A DNA stretch of 64,000 nucleotides from Escherichia phage vB_EcoM-Ro157lw. This document shows, in pieces, positions 464-36,069 of the stretch. Position 1 is the first letter of the stretch, and each line of letters begins with the position of its first letter. The notes below the pieces were generated by a model. The model did no database searches. It saw only the letters and a program-made list of their open reading frames with translations, and was not told the DNA's origin. The position numbers and the translations under genes were made by a program. The stretch is taken from the sequence record MH051335.1; one strand, given 5' to 3'.

Positions 464-674
464 TTTCTTTCCACTCCACAAATGTACTGCTACTTGTTTC
501 TCTATTTAGCAGGTATCTGCCGCGCATTCCACGAAGGCTGAATTCAACCGTCGATGGATTAGATTTTGAAAGCCACATCACTTGACCGTCGAACGGTCCG
601 CCAACGCATGTGTATTTGGCCTTTGGCTCACTCCTTTTGGGCCTCTTTGCCCGCTCTTTGATTGATAGTCTCAT
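453..674 (-). CDS. hypothetical basic protein (73 aa)
   Basis: ORF in six-frame track; Lys/Arg-rich N-terminus; overlaps neighbours by a few nt as in an operon. Confidence 0.35.
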   Translation of the reverse strand: MRLSIKERAKRPKRSEPKAKYTCVGGPFDGQVMWLSKSNPSTVEFSLRGMRGRYLLNRETSSSTFVEWKENGK

Positions 675-889
675 CAGTCTTCACCTTGAGATTCAAGACA
701 AGTAAGAACAAGCCACGTCATCGGAAGAATCAAAACCAGAGAAATAAGTGACCAAATGGACCAACACAAGATGACAGACTTGAATGTGTGAACGTCGCCA
801 AACGCAGCAGTGAAACAAAATCCCATTACGAAAGCAATCGCTGTGGAGTGATTATCAATGGCTTTGATGGCGCGGTCGATGAGTTTCAT
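674..889 (-). CDS. small membrane protein with two predicted transmembrane helices and charged C-terminus; holin-like
   Basis: 71 aa; hydrophobic stretches AIAFVMGFCFTAAFG and VILCWSIWSLISLVLILPMTWLVL; acidic C-terminal tail; size and topology as in class II holins. Confidence 0.4.
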   Translation of the reverse strand: MKLIDRAIKAIDNHSTAIAFVMGFCFTAAFGDVHTFKSVILCWSIWSLISLVLILPMTWLVLTCLESQGED

Positions 890-28978: not shown

Positions 28979-29623
28979 ATGATTAACGCAAACGTAATAT
29001 CTAAAGGGACCGGATGCAGCATGGATGTTGCAGAGAAATGGGTGGACCCTTTCAAGCAGGCTTGTGAGCACTACGGAATCAAAAGCAAGAGTGCCATCGC
29101 GGCATTCCTTGCAAACGTAGGAGTAGAGACAGGCAGCTTGAAAACATTTGTGGAAAATCTCAACTACTCTGCACAGGGTCTTGCCAACACGTGGCCTAGT
29201 CGTTACAGCGTCAACGGTCGCTCTGGAAGTTCCCCGAACTCATTGGCCCTGTCGATTGCCCGTAAACCAATGGAAATCGCCAATAATACATATGCAAACC
29301 GCATGGGAAATGGTTCGGTAGCATCTGGCGACGGCTGGAAGTACCGTGGCCGTGGTGCCATTCAGCTGACTGGCAAGGCGAACTATGCGGAATATACGCG
29401 CCAATCAGGCTATGATGCGTTGAACAATCCTGATATTCTGACTGAACCAAAATACATTGCCGACAGCGCGGCATGGTTCTTTAAGAATAGCGGTTGTATC
29501 CCTCTTGCGGATGCAGGAAATTTTGATTCAACCGTTAAGCGAATTAACGGGGCCGCGCCGAACGCAGCAAACCACGGTGAGTTGCGAAGAAAGCGTTACA
29601 AAGATGCACTAGCAGTTATGTAA
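28979..29623 (+). CDS. endolysin, glycoside hydrolase family 19 (chitinase class I-like)
   Basis: GH19-type motifs including YRGRGAIQLTGKANY and AAFLANVGVETG; no signal peptide. Confidence 0.75.
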   Translation: MINANVISKGTGCSMDVAEKWVDPFKQACEHYGIKSKSAIAAFLANVGVETGSLKTFVENLNYSAQGLANTWPSRYSVNGRSGSSPNSLALSIARKPMEIANNTYANRMGNGSVASGDGWKYRGRGAIQLTGKANYAEYTRQSGYDALNNPDILTEPKYIADSAAWFFKNSGCIPLADAGNFDSTVKRINGAAPNAANHGELRRKRYKDALAVM

Positions 29624-29629
29624 GAAAAA

Positions 29630-29643
29630 GGCCCATATGGGCC
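29630..29643. terminator. bidirectional intrinsic terminator between convergent genes
   Basis: Perfect palindrome GGCCCATATGGGCC flanked by A-run upstream and T-run downstream. Confidence 0.6.
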
Positions 29644-29648
29644 TTTGT

Positions 29649-29879
29649 TTATTTTACGGCTTCAACTTGGACGGGCGGAGCGGAACTTGTATCAATGTCT
29701 GGCAAGTCGAAGTAATACCCCGCCATACCAATCACACCCACAATCGCGGCCCGTGCCACCTTGCTGCTAATTGACTCCCCAATAAGCTTTACCAACAGGG
29801 ATAAGATTTGAGACGTCAAAGCCTTTTTCAGCCTTTTGTTTTCTTCCAAATCTTTCTGCATAACTACCACCCATGTCAA
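29649..29879 (-). CDS. small protein with one C-proximal hydrophobic helix; holin or antiholin candidate
   Basis: 76 aa; AAIVGVIGMAGYYF hydrophobic segment; convergent with the endolysin. Confidence 0.35.
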   Translation of the reverse strand: MTWVVVMQKDLEENKRLKKALTSQILSLLVKLIGESISSKVARAAIVGVIGMAGYYFDLPDIDTSSAPPVQVEAVK

Positions 29880-30418
29880 CGCACTTCCTGTGTCTTAACA
29901 TTACCTGAAGCATCTCTCAAGGGCAGTGGATAGTAGGCCATTTGGTAGTCTGATACGCCTTCAATGTGATAAAACACGATTACGTCTTTGCTGTTGATGA
30001 GCATGTTAACGACATCTGATTTATCTTCTGGAGTGAGTATTAGTGCGCCGCCTGTCCTGCTGTCTACTGCAACAGGGTATGTCTTGTCGACAAGGCCGCT
30101 GTCCAATGTATTATACCTGACAACGATTTCAGGGGCATCAACTTTTGCCATTGACATTCCGAACACAAACGACACTACTTGTCGACCGCGATCATTCATT
30201 ACGCACATCTTTTCTTTGTCAAATCTTTCTTTTATTACGTCGTATTTGTTCCAGCAGAACTCAAAGGATTGCCCATTGTTGAAATATCTTGTCAAAACTT
30301 TTGCACTTCCATTCGGCGGCGTAAACATATTTTCAGCCGATGCAGTCTTGGTGAAGAATATAACTGTCAGCATAGCCATGATGATGATCAAAACAATCTT
30401 TAATTTGTTCGCTTTCAT
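29876..30418 (-). CDS. secreted or membrane-anchored protein (180 aa) with N-terminal signal sequence
   Basis: N-terminus MKANKLKIVLIIIMAMLTVIFFTKTASA (basic n-region, hydrophobic core, ASA cleavage-like site). Confidence 0.5.
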   Translation of the reverse strand: MKANKLKIVLIIIMAMLTVIFFTKTASAENMFTPPNGSAKVLTRYFNNGQSFEFCWNKYDVIKERFDKEKMCVMNDRGRQVVSFVFGMSMAKVDAPEIVVRYNTLDSGLVDKTYPVAVDSRTGGALILTPEDKSDVVNMLINSKDVIVFYHIEGVSDYQMAYYPLPLRDASGNVKTQEVR

Positions 30419-30502
30419 TATAATTCACCTTTTGATTATGAATATTAATAGTATAGGCTCAAGGTTTTGAAAGTAAATACGCCGAAAGTAAATAAAAGAA
30501 AA

Positions 30503-30518
30503 GCCGGAAATTTCCGGC
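30503..30518 (-). terminator. intrinsic terminator downstream of the ligase gene
   Basis: Perfect palindrome GCCGGAAATTTCCGGC followed on the minus strand by TTTTCTTTTATTT. Confidence 0.55.
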
Positions 30519-30593
30519 TTTATGTATACACTGTATATTAAATTCTAGAAAACAGCGCGATAGATTATACGCACCAATTATTTATCCAGTGTG

Positions 30594-31571: not shown

Positions 31572-32161
31572 TCAAACTCCTTATTCATCACTTGTTCCAT
31601 TGCATAGGCGTAAGCCTGATCAGTCGATTTGATAAACGTTCCGTTGTACATCACTCCTTTACGGTCCTTGATGTCTTCATAGGCGGCTTGAGCGCAATCA
31701 GACAGTCGAAGTCCATAATCATGCGCTACGCCGGAAAGATAATCGACTGCGGCCATGATGGTGACATCAATATCCATACTCTGATTTTTAGCAATGGCGT
31801 CACCAAGCCGTCCGAGAGTCTTTGCCAAGCGAAGGATAAACGAGTGAGGGTGGGCACCTTTGTCAGCGCAACCGCCGCCGTTGATGTCTTCGATTTTTGC
31901 ACCATTTTGCGCGGCAAGAATAGTTAACACAACAAGGCAATCGCCGATGTCATCCTTGATTGCGGCTTGTAAATCACAGATGGCCTGCTCTGTATATCCG
32001 ATTTCAGGGTCAAAGAACACAAGGTCATGTAATTGATCAATGTGGTCGGTCAACTCCCCAAACTCGCTAATAAGCTTCGGGTATTGGTCCTTAAGGTCGC
32101 AGCCTTGGATGATGTTACGGTCAGAAGCCCACTGGCGAATGTTTGCATAAATCTGGTTCAT
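31568..32161 (-). CDS. mazG: MazG-like nucleoside triphosphate pyrophosphohydrolase
   Basis: EFGEL and DDIGDCLVVL motifs typical of all-alpha NTP pyrophosphohydrolases. Confidence 0.6.
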   Translation of the reverse strand: MNQIYANIRQWASDRNIIQGCDLKDQYPKLISEFGELTDHIDQLHDLVFFDPEIGYTEQAICDLQAAIKDDIGDCLVVLTILAAQNGAKIEDINGGGCADKGAHPHSFILRLAKTLGRLGDAIAKNQSMDIDVTIMAAVDYLSGVAHDYGLRLSDCAQAAYEDIKDRKGVMYNGTFIKSTDQAYAYAMEQVMNKEFE

Positions 32162-32676
32162 TTATTTTCCTTTGATGCATTGAATTGATCGATTTTAATT
32201 TTAGCCTGATTATAAGTATCAATCAAGCTATTAACCTTCTCTTTTAATCGGTTTGTTTCTGCGGCGAACTGAACAAGAAAACTGACATCTTCTTCTGATA
32301 GTCCACAGTTTCCTTCTGGGATAGAGAGGCGTCCAGTGGTCGCAGAGTCGGGCATACTCCTGAGTAATTCACGGGAGCAGCTGAGTTGCTCGCGCAGCTT
32401 GATATTCCCAGACTTGTAACGAGCAATAGTGTCATCAGCAACCAGTTGCGCTTCCTGGCGACCCTTCTCATATGCCGATGCCGATTCAACCTGTAAAGAT
32501 GCAATTTGCTCTTCGAGTGCATTTATCTTGTCCTTACGCTCATTGAGCGATGTCAGATATTGATTATCCTTGGCCAGTGATGCGTTGGTTTGCTGAAGGT
32601 CTTCAACGTATGATCCAGCGGCGAACGCGCCAACAAGGGCCAGAATCTTCAGAAGCGGCACAATTCTTTCTATCAT
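32158..32676 (-). CDS. i-spanin (Rz-like inner-membrane spanin)
   Basis: N-terminal transmembrane helix IVPLLKILALVGAFAAGSYV, then coiled-coil periplasmic domain; a lipoprotein ORF is embedded in the +1 frame. Confidence 0.5.
   Translation of the reverse strand: MIERIVPLLKILALVGAFAAGSYVEDLQQTNASLAKDNQYLTSLNERKDKINALEEQIASLQVESASAYEKGRQEAQLVADDTIARYKSGNIKLREQLSCSRELLRSMPDSATTGRLSIPEGNCGLSEEDVSFLVQFAAETNRLKEKVNSLIDTYNQAKIKIDQFNASKENK
32244..32435 (-). CDS. o-spanin (Rz1-like outer-membrane lipoprotein) fully embedded in the i-spanin gene
   Basis: 63 aa; signal MTLLLVTSLGISS followed by lipobox Cys; Pro-containing short mature peptide; different frame inside 32158-32676. Confidence 0.4.
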   Translation of the reverse strand: MTLLLVTSLGISSCASNSAAPVNYSGVCPTLRPLDASLSQKETVDYQKKMSVFLFSSPQKQTD

Positions 32677-32733
32677 GATGCACCAGATAAATAAAAGGCC
32701 GCCAATCGGCAGCCTTGTTGATTTGATTGTCGA

Positions 32734-34545: not shown

Positions 34546-36069
34546 TTAATTCATCTTTTTGCCGTCGAGGATGTGATCAGCAAGCATTGACTTCATACTG
34601 AGTGAACGCTGAATTTCTTCGTCGATGGTATCAACACCAATAAAATCAACATACAACACGCTTGATTTGGTGCCGATGCGGTGATTTCGGTCTTCGGATT
34701 GCTTGCGCAACTCGTTATCGTAGTTGCAAGAATAATAAATTGCCAAGTCGGCGGCGGTAAGCGTGATGCCGATGCCTGCCGCTGCAGCGTGGCAAACCAA
34801 GACTTGCGTTCCGCCGTTCTCGACTGTATTCTTCTGGAAGTCATCAATTAAGAACTCTCGCTGCTCTTTGGACGTTTCACCATTGTATACACCAGTGACC
34901 ACGCCTTCAGACTCAAGCCAGTCCTTAATCTGGTTCATCTCTTCCTTAAAGATGGCCCAAACGATGAATTTGCGCTCTGGGTCGTCTTCCAGCACACCTT
35001 CCACATAATCCTTAAAGGCCGTGAATCGTGGGTTGTCTTCCATGTAGACCATCTCATCATACACCTTAACAAAGCCGGATGTAACCTGCTTCATCTTAGT
35101 GCGAGACGCGATCATCTCAAACTTGACGTTTTCTTCTTCGCCCTTGTATTCCATCAAATAGTTGTACTCATTCTTGAGTTCATCGTAAACATCACGTTGT
35201 TTAGGCGACAACTCGAAGTCGATAAACTTGTACACCTTCTCTGGAAGGTCCGGCAAGTATTCCGCTTTTGTCGCACGAAAATAGTGCGGTTCCATCAGCC
35301 GGATAAGCTTGTCAAGGTTTTTGTACATCGGTCGACCAAACTGGTCTTTGCGCGGCACTTGCGGAATCCCATAACCATTGCCGCCGATTTTCTTGAGGAT
35401 GGCTTGCATCTCTGGGTCGTGCGCTTCAAGTAGCACTGTAAATTCAGAGTTAAAGGCACGGAATGATTTGGTGCCGAGCAATCCTGCTTCAAGGAAGTGG
35501 TATTGCATGTAAATATCCGCAGGCGAGCGCGGCAACGGCGTGCCAGAAAGGATTCGACGGGCCTTTGCCAGCCGTCCCAATTCCACAACCTTGATGGAGC
35601 GTTTGGCTGTGTTATTCTTGATGCGCGTTGATTCGTCGATGATCATCAGGCAGCGGTACTTCTTCAAGACCGACTCGATGTGTTGATAACCGACTGGTGT
35701 GTTGACAGTATCGATGTTGAATGAGAAGATGCGCGCAGGCACTTCGCCTTCGGGGTAGTGATCAGCAAACATCTTCTCCCAAAGCGCCTTGCCCTTTTTA
35801 GTTTTCATCTTATCGTTGCCGCACCAGTAGTGCCCAATCCACTTGATGGAAAGGTGCTCTGGCGCTTCACGACGAATCCAGTTTGAGTGGACCCCGTTTG
35901 GAGCGATGACGACCATGGCGTCGAAAGCGCCAGCGGTGAAGTGCTTTTCAAACTCTGCCAAAGCGGTCCAAGTTTTACCAAGACCCTGTTCCATGAAATA
36001 GGCAAAGTATTTTCTGCGGCCTGCTTTATCAAGCGCCAGAAGCTGGTGGCGCATCCCTTGTGTTTTCAT
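34546..36069 (-). CDS. SNF2-family (SF2) DNA helicase / translocase
   Basis: Motif I GLGKT, motif II DESTRIKN, C-terminal helicase domain; followed by VRR-NUC gene as commonly seen in phages. Confidence 0.75.
   Translation of the reverse strand: MKTQGMRHQLLALDKAGRRKYFAYFMEQGLGKTWTALAEFEKHFTAGAFDAMVVIAPNGVHSNWIRREAPEHLSIKWIGHYWCGNDKMKTKKGKALWEKMFADHYPEGEVPARIFSFNIDTVNTPVGYQHIESVLKKYRCLMIIDESTRIKNNTAKRSIKVVELGRLAKARRILSGTPLPRSPADIYMQYHFLEAGLLGTKSFRAFNSEFTVLLEAHDPEMQAILKKIGGNGYGIPQVPRKDQFGRPMYKNLDKLIRLMEPHYFRATKAEYLPDLPEKVYKFIDFELSPKQRDVYDELKNEYNYLMEYKGEEENVKFEMIASRTKMKQVTSGFVKVYDEMVYMEDNPRFTAFKDYVEGVLEDDPERKFIVWAIFKEEMNQIKDWLESEGVVTGVYNGETSKEQREFLIDDFQKNTVENGGTQVLVCHAAAAGIGITLTAADLAIYYSCNYDNELRKQSEDRNHRIGTKSSVLYVDFIGVDTIDEEIQRSLSMKSMLADHILDGKKMN

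What the first reader, a model, noticed from the sequence alone, without database searches (positions are those of the whole stretch)
32158..32676. Embedded Rz/Rz1-like spanin pair located in the replication module, away from the endolysin
A 172-aa protein with an N-terminal transmembrane helix and coiled-coil periplasmic domain fully contains, in another frame, a 63-aa lipoprotein ORF (32244-32435) with a lipobox. The pair lies about 3 kb from the GH19 endolysin and between mazG and SSB. No canonical holin lies beside the endolysin; the candidates are the 76-aa ORF at 29649-29879 and the two-helix 71-aa ORF at 674-889.
Basis: partly seen in the sequence, partly recalled or inferred. Interest (0 to 1): 0.45.

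Follow-up and report, generated by a model that had tools for sequence, protein, structure and literature searches.

The report
Known embedded spanin pair, Wifcevirus phage
The two overlapping genes are real and almost certainly encode the inner- and outer-membrane halves of a spanin, the complex that breaks the host's outer membrane at the end of infection, but this exact pair is already catalogued and annotated in near-identical E. coli phages, so the finding is ordinary.

Summary
The window is a Wifcevirus-type (PB1-like) E. coli myophage. ORF 32158-32676(-) encodes a 172-aa Rz-like i-spanin: an N-terminal membrane helix, a long helix, a linker and a second helix. Its +1 frame holds a lipoprotein ORF (32244-32522) with lipobox GISS|C.

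The overlap is not chance. Four relatives at 52-65% identity keep the embedded ORF, the lipobox and a conserved mature core. Third-codon-position divergence in the i-spanin frame falls from 0.49-0.59 outside the overlap to 0.23 inside it.

- The 63-aa start is the least likely. The ATGs at 32522 (92 aa, with a ribosome-binding site) and 32471 (75 aa) are the ones conserved. All three give the same 50-aa mature lipoprotein.
- "SSB" for the upstream neighbour is only weakly supported.
- The position away from the endolysin is typical of the lineage.

It is already known. The 98.8%-identical ECML-117 pair is in the Kongari et al. 2018 spanin catalogue, and phages Mansfield and Bas98-101 carry i-/o-spanin annotations. 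No experiment has tested it.

Side results: PB1-group relatives carry a holin-like membrane protein in this slot instead, and the 76-aa holin candidate is homologous to the tested lysis-related protein PA1-LRP.

The parts
32158..32676 (-). i-spanin gene (Rz-like), 172 aa
   Evidence: ORF. phrog_1327 'Rz-like spanin', E 9e-27. hhalign to Mica Rz: 97.3% probability. 98.8% identical to the annotated i-spanins of Mansfield and ECML-117.
32608..32664 (-). N-terminal transmembrane helix of the i-spanin (about residues 5-23, IVPLLKILALVGAFAAGSY)
   Evidence: Kyte-Doolittle 19-residue mean 1.8. Helical in the AF2 model. G16 and A17 are invariant in relatives.
32359..32607 (-). First periplasmic helix of the i-spanin (residues 24-106); contains invariant Cys100
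   Evidence: AF2 helix 5-106, pLDDT 86-93 over residues 31-90. C100 invariant.
32296..32358 (-). Unstructured linker of the i-spanin (residues 107-127); contains invariant Cys124
   Evidence: No secondary structure and lower pLDDT in the model. N123, C124, G125, L126 and S127 invariant.
32167..32295 (-). Second periplasmic helix of the i-spanin (residues 128-170)
   Evidence: AF2 helix 128-170. The FAAETNRL motif is invariant.
32244..32522 (-). o-spanin gene embedded in the +1 frame, longest form (92 aa; start used in the Mansfield and Bas101 records)
   Evidence: ORF. The ATG is conserved in 5 lineages while the overlapping i-spanin codon varies AAT/TAT/CAT/GAT. Annotated as o-spanin in MK903282 and PQ850631.
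32531..32535 (-). Shine-Dalgarno-like AAGGA, 8 nt upstream of the ATG at 32522
   Evidence: Sequence read. AAGGA is present in all five lineages. Mansfield annotates a ribosome-binding site here.
32469..32471 (-). Alternative conserved o-spanin start (75-aa form, MRRVARKRNW...), the start used by Kongari et al. 2018
   Evidence: ATG conserved in all five lineages; gives a typical 25-aa lipoprotein signal. ECML-117 entry in PMC6139136 Table S1.
32397..32522 (-). o-spanin signal peptide, ending in the lipobox L-G-I-S-S before the Cys
   Evidence: Hydrophobic core LLMTLLLVTSLGISS; lipobox pattern match. The ECML-117 signal peptide is recorded as ending GISS.
32247..32396 (-). Mature o-spanin, 50 aa (CASNSAAPVNYSGVCPTLRPLD...): lipid-modified Cys1, Ala at +2, conserved Cys15
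   Evidence: Alignment of five lineages. Reduced divergence at i-spanin codon position 3 across this stretch.
32695..32716 (-). Terminator-like hairpin with T-run, between the Pam3_Gp34-like gene and the i-spanin start
   Evidence: 9-bp stem with 6 GC pairs. A terminator is annotated at the same place in Mansfield and, before the equivalent slot, in Burkholderia phage Maja.
31568..32161 (-). MazG-like pyrophosphatase gene; its start overlaps the i-spanin stop by 4 nt, suggesting translational coupling
   Evidence: phrog_1992, E 6.6e-64. Coordinates.
28979..29623 (+). GH19-type endolysin with no N-terminal membrane segment; the peptidoglycan-degrading partner
   Evidence: PF00182, E 1.2e-7. phrog_181 endolysin, E 8e-70.
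29649..29861 (-). 70-aa (76 aa from the TTG start) small membrane-active protein, convergent with the endolysin; best holin-like candidate
   Evidence: Homologous to PB1 gp49 (E 1.6e-8). Homologous to Pantoea phage PA1-LRP (52% identity, E 5e-9; the published primers map onto the same ORF). PA1-LRP is toxic and potentiates its endolysin (PMC11538084).

Best explanation
The locus encodes a two-component spanin with the embedded (lambda Rz/Rz1-type) gene architecture.

The parts:
- The 172-aa product is an inner-membrane protein anchored by one N-terminal helix. Its two long periplasmic helices are joined by a flexible linker.
- The +1-frame product is exported, cleaved by signal peptidase II at GISS|C and lipidated. 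[quoted passage not shown]

How it works, by analogy with lambda: the two proteins bind through their C-terminal parts and are covalently dimerised through periplasmic cysteines. Here those would be Cys100 and Cys124 in the i-spanin and Cys15 of the mature o-spanin. The complexes span the periplasm and are held inactive by the peptidoglycan mesh. Once a holin releases the GH19 endolysin and the wall is degraded, the complexes collapse and fuse the inner and outer membranes, completing lysis.

Expression: the genes sit after an attenuating terminator at the head of a spanin-MazG-ligase unit, on the strand opposite the endolysin. This position is fixed in this phage clade.

Shown here: gene structure, dual-frame purifying selection, topology signals, fold, and homology to Rz proteins.
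Inferred: lipidation, complex formation, membrane fusion and timing of expression.
For: - ORFs and signals.
- phrog_1327 Rz-like spanin, E 9e-27, and a weak o-spanin PHROG hit, E 7e-4.
- Profile match to a PF03245 Rz, 97.3% probability.
- tblastn hits to Rz genes that sit in canonical holin-endolysin-Rz cassettes of Yersinia phage PY54 (E 3e-14) and Burkholderia phage Mica (E 2e-6).
- AF2 architecture of membrane helix, helix, linker, helix.
- Embedded lipoprotein ORF, lipobox and Cys conserved at 52-65% i-spanin identity.
- Codon-position signature of dual coding.
- A lipoprotein-like alternative-frame ORF arises in only 0.06% of recodings.
- It is the only credible lipoprotein ORF among the three ATG-initiated candidates my pattern rule returned for the window.
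- No homolog of the PB1 u-spanin gp08 in the window, so no evident redundancy.
- Independent annotation as i-/o-spanin in Mansfield and Bas101, and inclusion of the ECML-117 pair in the curated spanin set.
Against: - No experiment on this pair or on any Wifcevirus spanin was found.
- The i-spanin does not reach Pfam PF03245 itself; no hit at E <= 0.1.
- The o-spanin matches no Pfam family. It is only 8% proline, much less than lambda Rz1 as I recall it.
- No dedicated signal peptidase II predictor was available. The lipobox call rests on a pattern and on the catalogue's 25-aa signal-peptide and lipobox entry for ECML-117.
- The o-spanin start codon is unresolved.
- A strong terminator directly upstream and no recognisable promoter leave expression timing unknown.
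Confidence: 0.9

Rival explanations
1. The embedded ORF is a by-product of the amino-acid composition of the 172-aa coiled-coil protein and is not translated. Only the large protein is functional.
For: Alternative-frame open stretches of 92 codons or more arise in 14% of synonymous recodings of this protein. Another lipobox-bearing alternative-frame ORF in the window (34593-34847, inside the helicase gene) is clearly chance.
Against: - The ORF, its lipobox, both ATGs and a 24-residue mature core persist in lineages whose i-spanins are only 52-65% identical.
- Divergence at i-spanin codon position 3 drops to 0.23 in the overlap, against 0.49-0.59 outside it. Within the overlap the pattern fits coding in the +1 frame.
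- The helicase alternative-frame ORF, by contrast, is broken by stops in relatives.
Confidence: 0.02
2. The 172-aa protein is a membrane-anchored coiled-coil protein of the replication module, for example a DNA-membrane tether or a superinfection-exclusion factor. Its resemblance to Rz is compositional.
For: - It lies among replication genes: helicase, DNA polymerase III alpha, ligase and MazG.
- It has no Pfam Rz hit.
- Coiled coils attract spurious matches, such as the SbcC and GvpL hits.
Against: - The match to Rz proteins covers 150 columns and includes the non-coiled-coil motif SGN(I/V)(K/R)LR..C and the linker region.
- The homologs sit in canonical lysis cassettes.
- A conserved embedded outer-membrane lipoprotein is specific to spanins.
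- Xanthomonas phage Carpasina carries a separated i-/o-spanin pair in the same slot.
Confidence: 0.04
3. The pair is a genuine spanin but is dispensable here. Outer-membrane disruption would be carried out mainly by another factor, such as a disruptin-like peptide or the 76-aa LRP-like protein.
For: - Kylevirus relatives (L017, PA1) have no recognisable spanin in either slot yet lyse their hosts.
- The abstract of a preprint on phage phiKT states that about 15% of phages lack spanin genes.
Against: - Purifying selection acts on both frames across five lineages.
- No second lipoprotein or u-spanin candidate was found in 64 kb.
Confidence: 0.04

Closest known systems
Escherichia phage ECML-117 embedded i-spanin/o-spanin (JX128258, 45375-45894 and 45462-45689), entry in Kongari et al. 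2018, BMC Bioinformatics 19:326 (PMC6139136, Table S1)
   Same: i-spanin 98.8% identical. Same embedded architecture, same lipobox GISS|C, same 50-aa mature o-spanin apart from a few substitutions, and same genomic position.
   Different: Essentially nothing. The catalogue starts the o-spanin at the 75-aa ATG and listed both proteins as singleton families. The four 52-65% relatives found here now make it a small family.
Escherichia phage Mansfield gp057/gp058 (MK903282) and BASEL phages Bas98-101, annotated i-spanin / o-spanin
   Same: Same genes at 97-99% identity, same neighbours, and the same upstream terminator.
   Different: These records start the o-spanin at the 92-aa ATG. The Mansfield genome announcement does not discuss lysis genes.
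Phage lambda Rz/Rz1, the prototype embedded two-component spanin (Pfam PF03245 and the Rz1 lipoprotein family)
   Same: Same gene-within-a-gene +1 architecture. The i-spanin has the same layout: type II membrane anchor, two helices and a linker. The o-spanin is a short outer-membrane lipoprotein, and both have periplasmic cysteines. There is remote sequence homology of the i-spanin through Mica and PY54 Rz.
   Different: - The i-spanin is below the Pfam threshold.
- The o-spanin is unrelated in sequence and much poorer in proline.
- The o-spanin gene spans 0.30/0.40 to 0.83 of the i-spanin length, against 0.4-0.5 to 0.9-1.0 in about 70% of embedded pairs.
- The pair is not part of a holin-endolysin-spanin cassette.
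Phage T4 pseT.3/pseT.2 spanins
   Same: Spanin genes that lie far from the endolysin and holin genes (my own knowledge). The architecture figure in PMC6139136 shows T4 as the 'separated' prototype.
   Different: The T4 genes are separate rather than embedded, and they are not homologous.
Lysis genes at the same position in PB1-like relatives: Xanthomonas phage Carpasina gp38/gp37 (separated spanins) and PB1 gp52, PS44 gp54 and Maja gp042 (201-aa membrane protein weakly resembling the GTA 3-TM holin)
   Same: Same slot between the Pam3_Gp34-like gene and MazG, preceded by a terminator in Maja (annotated) as in the window and Mansfield, on the strand opposite the endolysin.
   Different: The genes in the slot differ. 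Pbunavirus, Bcepfunavirus, Kylevirus and a Citrobacter-associated clade carry the membrane protein there and place spanins elsewhere: PB1 u-spanin gp08 in the early region, and Maja i-/o-spanins next to the endolysin. The window has no homolog of gp52 or gp08.

Membership tests
Two-component spanin, embedded architecture (criteria of Kongari et al. 2018; Summer et al. 2007 from my own knowledge) | i-spanin with a single N-terminal transmembrane domain (type II, N-in/C-out) | tested here: met
   Hydrophobic residues 5-23, Kyte-Doolittle 1.8. Helical in the AF2 model. No other hydrophobic segment. Orientation is inferred.
Two-component spanin, embedded architecture | Periplasmic domain of the i-spanin is largely alpha-helical, with two helical segments separated by a linker | tested here: met
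   AF2: helix 5-106, coil 107-127, helix 128-170. The catalogue records 63% helicity and one predicted coiled coil for ECML-117.
Two-component spanin, embedded architecture | o-spanin with a signal peptidase II signal (lipobox followed by Cys) | tested here: met
   The pattern [LVI..][AST..][GAS]C matches as ISSC after a hydrophobic core. It is conserved as ISGC, ISSC or TSSC in relatives. No dedicated predictor was run here. The catalogue lists a 25-aa signal peptide and lipobox GISS for ECML-117.
Two-component spanin, embedded architecture | Outer-membrane sorting: residue +2 after the lipidated Cys is not Asp | tested here: met
   Residue +2 is Ala (Val in L011) in all five lineages. The +2 rule itself is established knowledge.
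Two-component spanin, embedded architecture | o-spanin gene lies entirely within the i-spanin gene in another reading frame | tested here: met
   32244-32522 lies within 32158-32676, in frame +1.
Two-component spanin, embedded architecture | Periplasmic cysteines available for intermolecular disulfide bonds in both subunits | tested here: met
   i-spanin C100 and C124 are invariant. Cys15 of the mature o-spanin is conserved in five lineages. Disulfide formation itself was not tested.
Two-component spanin, embedded architecture | Typical relative position of the embedded gene (start at 0.4-0.5 L, end at 0.9-1.0 L in about 70% of cases) | tested here: inconclusive
   The start is at 0.30 L (92-aa form) or 0.40 L (75-aa form) and the end at 0.83 L. 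This is within the known range but outside the modal class.
Two-component spanin, embedded architecture | Both genes required for outer-membrane disruption (spherical-cell phenotype); subunits interact through their C-termini | not testable with these tools
   Needs genetics and biochemistry. No published test was found.
Pfam PF03245 Phage_lysis (Rz) | Sequence score above the family's gathering threshold (25.4 bits) | tested here: not met
   No hit at E <= 0.1 for the window protein. The relative P0004 scores 18.7 bits. Remote homology is nonetheless supported: hhalign to the PF03245 member Mica Rz gives 97.3% probability, E 1.6e-11, and phrog_1327 matches at E 9e-27.
Lambda Rz1-type o-spanin sequence family | Sequence similarity to Rz1 lipoproteins | tested here: not met
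   No Pfam family at E <= 0.1. Only weak PHROG o-spanin hits: phrog_4306 at E 7e-4 and phrog_1275 at E 0.01. Listed as a singleton o-spanin family in the catalogue. It is a functional analogue, not a sequence-family member.

The most novel reading that the evidence does not exclude
Two readings go beyond the known annotation.

(a) In the ancestor of the Wifcevirus clade, an embedded spanin cassette of enterobacterial-phage type replaced the 201-aa holin-like membrane gene that Pbunavirus, Bcepfunavirus and Kylevirus carry between the Pam3_Gp34-like gene and MazG. On this reading the slot is a swappable envelope-disruption position, and the small LRP-like 76-aa protein is left as the only holin.

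(b) The two conserved in-frame ATGs of the o-spanin are both used, giving precursors with a 42-aa or a 25-aa signal peptide. The ATG at 32522 is preserved while the overlapping i-spanin codon cycles through AAT, TAT, CAT and GAT. This could tune export or timing, loosely like dual-start holins.

Either could bear on the very short latent period reported for Wifcevirus phages.
Probability: 0.2. Interest if true: 0.35.

Novelty: already known. Interest (0 to 1): 0.12.

Why it matters
It matters little beyond correct annotation. The pair is a routine embedded two-component spanin that specialists have already catalogued.

Its modest value is practical:
- Many Wifcevirus records still label one or both genes 'hypothetical protein'.
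- The o-spanin start is annotated inconsistently, as 75 aa in one source and 92 aa in others.
- Wifcevirus phages are candidates for therapy and biocontrol of E. coli O157 and Shigella, so a complete lysis-gene inventory is useful.

The comparative result is a small but usable observation on modular evolution of lysis functions: the same slot holds an embedded spanin, a separated spanin or a holin-like protein in different PB1-like genera. The link between the 76-aa ORF and the experimentally tested PA1-LRP points to where the missing holin should be sought.

Tried and rejected
- Pfam scan of both products: no spanin family reached. This was not taken as evidence against, because PHROG and profile-profile comparison do connect the i-spanin to Rz.
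- IMG/VR locus search with the i-spanin: only four near-identical phages and one weak hit. It was replaced by the protein search, which gave the informative 52-65% relatives.
- ORF length as evidence: rejected, because 14% of recodings give 92 or more open codons.
- A second lipobox ORF at 34593-34847(-), which looked like a mini u-spanin: rejected as the alternative frame of the helicase gene, broken by stops in relatives.
- Search of the window for homologs of the PB1 holin-like gp52 and u-spanin gp08: none found.
- Promoter scan: no convincing sigma-70 promoter between the terminator and the i-spanin start. The number of promoter-like sites in the region equals the shuffle expectation.
- Literature search for experiments on Wifcevirus lysis genes: none found.
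Full report
**What the window is.** The 3 kb around the finding is 97-98% identical to Escherichia phages ECP_WGS_SA1, RCIP0363, WFH, Mansfield and ECML-117, all of genus Wifcevirus. These are PB1-like myophages of about 68 kb.

**Checking the observation.**
- The 172-aa ORF lies at 32158-32676 on the minus strand. A 92-codon open stretch at 32244-32522 lies inside it in the +1 frame.
- The large product has one hydrophobic N-terminal segment (residues 5-23). An AlphaFold2 model (mean pLDDT 78) shows a continuous helix 5-106, an unstructured stretch 107-127 and a second helix 128-170.
- The embedded product reads MHSKSKLHLYRLNRHRHMRRVARKRNWLLMTLLLVTSLGISS|CASNSAAPVNYSGVCPTLRPLD... It has a hydrophobic core, a lipobox, a Cys, and Ala at +2.
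- Length alone is weak evidence. Synonymous recoding of the large protein gives an alternative-frame open stretch of 92 codons or more in 14% of trials. A lipoprotein-signal-like ORF arises in only 0.06%.

**Evolutionary test.** A protein search found four relatives at 52-65% identity (P0002-P0005). They lie on metagenomic phage contigs with the same gene order: Pam3_Gp34-like gene, i-spanin, MazG, ligase, a 180-aa ORF, a 75-aa ORF, then a convergent endolysin.
- All four keep the +1 ORF, a lipobox (ISGC, ISSC or TSSC) and a strongly conserved mature core, YSGVCPTLxPLDASLSQKETVDYQ.
- In the i-spanin frame, pairwise divergence at codon positions 1/2/3 is 0.39/0.23/0.59 in the non-overlapping N-terminal part and 0.39/0.22/0.49 in the non-overlapping C-terminal part. 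Over the mature o-spanin overlap it is 0.31/0.11/0.23.
- The wobble position of the outer gene is therefore constrained, as expected if the inner frame is translated.

**Start codon of the embedded gene.** It has no ribosome-binding site and is not conserved.
- Two upstream ATGs are conserved in all five lineages.
- ATG 32471 gives the 75-aa form, with a textbook 25-residue signal peptide MRRVARKRNW... This is the start used in the spanin catalogue.
- ATG 32522 gives the 92-aa form and has AAGGA 8 nt upstream. GenBank records use this start.
- At 32522 the overlapping i-spanin codon is AAT, TAT, CAT, GAT and AAT in the five lineages (Asn, Tyr, His, Asp, Asn), always followed by G. The ATG is thus kept while the i-spanin residue changes. 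That suggests selection on the ATG itself.
- All starts give the same 50-residue mature lipoprotein, so the question affects annotation and perhaps expression, not the product.

**What it is.**
- The large protein matches phrog_1327 'Rz-like spanin' at E 9e-27.
- By tblastn it matches the Rz genes of Yersinia phage PY54 (E 3e-14) and Burkholderia phage Mica (E 2e-6). Both sit in canonical holin-endolysin-Rz cassettes.
- A profile of the window protein and its relatives aligns to Mica Rz, a PF03245 member at E 6e-17, with 97.3% probability over 150 columns. The alignment includes the SGN(I/V)(K/R)LR..C motif.
- The window protein itself does not reach the Pfam threshold. The o-spanin has no Pfam family and only weak PHROG o-spanin hits.
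- Cys100 and Cys124 of the i-spanin are invariant, and Cys15 of the mature o-spanin is conserved. This fits the intermolecular disulfides described for lambda spanins (discussed in PMC6139136).
- Among ATG-initiated ORFs my pattern rule returned three candidates in the 64-kb window, and the embedded ORF is the only credible lipoprotein among them. There is no homolog of the PB1 unimolecular spanin gp08.

**Mechanism (inferred from the lambda paradigm).**
- The i-spanin is anchored in the inner membrane.
- The o-spanin is lipidated and sent to the outer membrane.
- The two bind through their C-terminal parts and span the periplasm, restrained by the peptidoglycan.
- After the holin-released GH19 endolysin removes the wall, the complex collapses and fuses the two membranes.
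- None of these steps has been tested for this pair.

**Genomic position.**
- The pair sits 2.5-3 kb from the endolysin (28979-29623, plus strand) on the opposite strand.
- It comes directly after a strong terminator-like hairpin (32695-32716). Mansfield annotates the same hairpin.
- Its stop overlaps the MazG start by 4 nt.
- This is a lineage trait rather than an oddity of this phage. Xanthomonas phage Carpasina carries a separated i-/o-spanin pair in the same slot.
- Pbunavirus (PB1 gp52, PS44 gp54), Burkholderia phage Maja (gp042), a Kyle-like Pantoea phage and a Citrobacter-associated clade carry a conserved 201-aa membrane protein there. It weakly resembles the 3-TM GTA holin (PF11351, E 0.018).
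- Those phages place their spanins elsewhere. PB1 has the u-spanin gp08 in its early region. Maja has i-/o-spanins beside the endolysin. Aeromonas phage Gekk3-15 has a complete cassette.
- Spanins away from the endolysin are also known in T4 (my own knowledge).

**Side claims in the finding.**
- Holin candidates: the 76-aa ORF (70 aa from its ATG, 29649-29861) belongs to a family present in 324 phage records, including PB1 gp49. It is homologous to PA1-LRP of Pantoea phage PA1 (52% identity, E 5e-9), and the published primers map to that same ORF. Expression of PA1-LRP is toxic and potentiates the cognate GH19 endolysin (PMC11538084). That makes it the better candidate.
- The 71-aa ORF at 674-889 has two hydrophobic segments but no family match.

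**Is it new?** No.
- The ECML-117 pair has an i-spanin 98.8% identical to this one. It is listed as an embedded two-component spanin in Table S1 of Kongari et al. 2018, with a 75-aa o-spanin, lipobox GISS and a 50-aa mature form. Both proteins were then singleton families.
- Phage Mansfield and the BASEL phages Bas98-101 carry explicit i-spanin and o-spanin annotations. RefSeq labels the large gene 'Rz-like spanin'.
- This analysis adds three things: independent evolutionary proof of dual coding, evidence on the start codons, and the comparative picture of the slot.
- I found no experimental work on Wifcevirus lysis genes.

**Verdict.** The feature is already known. Interest is low.

Noticed in passing
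window 29649-29861 (-); L021 (Pantoea phage PA1) 12149-12301: The small ORF convergent with the endolysin is homologous to PA1-LRP, a protein shown experimentally to be toxic and to potentiate a GH19 endolysin. It is also homologous to PB1 gp49. The family is annotated 'hypothetical' in 324 phage records. It is a likely holin-like component for the whole PB1-like group.
   Followed up: partly
window 32677-32733 versus L003 4204-4809, L016 3257-3865, L017 5923-6528, L018 6240-6848: In Pbunavirus, Bcepfunavirus, Kylevirus and a Citrobacter-associated clade, the slot that holds the spanin pair here is occupied by a conserved 201-aa membrane protein. It has an N-terminal glycine-zipper segment, a coiled coil and C-terminal hydrophobic segments, and weakly matches PF11351 (GTA holin). 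The window has no homolog of it anywhere.
   Followed up: partly
window 32520-32522 and the aligned positions in L011-L014: The upstream o-spanin ATG is preserved in five lineages while the overlapping i-spanin codon takes all four forms xAT (Asn, Tyr, His, Asp). A second in-frame ATG 17 codons downstream is also conserved. Use of both starts is possible.
   Followed up: partly
[not shown]
   Followed up: partly
window 29876-30418 (-): This 180-aa protein has a cleavable-looking signal peptide (...TASA|EN). It is conserved next to the 76-aa ORF in Wifcevirus, its metagenomic relatives and Kylevirus (34% identity to PA1). It has no family match and its role is unknown; it may be periplasmic.
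   Followed up: no
L011 8065-8520 and L012 8078-8530 versus window 28979-29623: Two relatives keep the spanin pair, the 180-aa ORF and the 75-aa ORF, but carry a 150-aa endolysin in place of the GH19 enzyme. From my memory of the lambda R sequence it looks like lambda R (MLAWSEGT...). This would be an endolysin swap with the spanin retained.
   Followed up: no
window 34593-34847 (-): An 84-aa alternative-frame ORF inside the helicase gene has a lipobox-like ITSC and a short hydrophobic tail, superficially like a u-spanin. It is broken by stops in relatives and is judged to be chance.
   Followed up: yes
window 674-889 (-): This 71-aa ORF has two hydrophobic segments and sits in the small-gene cluster upstream of the terminase gene. 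It is annotated as hypothetical in Mansfield (gp019) and has no Pfam match below E 0.05 and no PHROG match at E <= 0.01.
   Followed up: partly
window 30500-30521 (-) and 29627-29646 (both strands): Strong terminator-like hairpins bound the spanin-MazG-ligase unit at its downstream end and lie between the convergent 76-aa ORF and the endolysin. With the hairpin at 32695-32716, they divide the minus-strand region into short transcription units.
   Followed up: no
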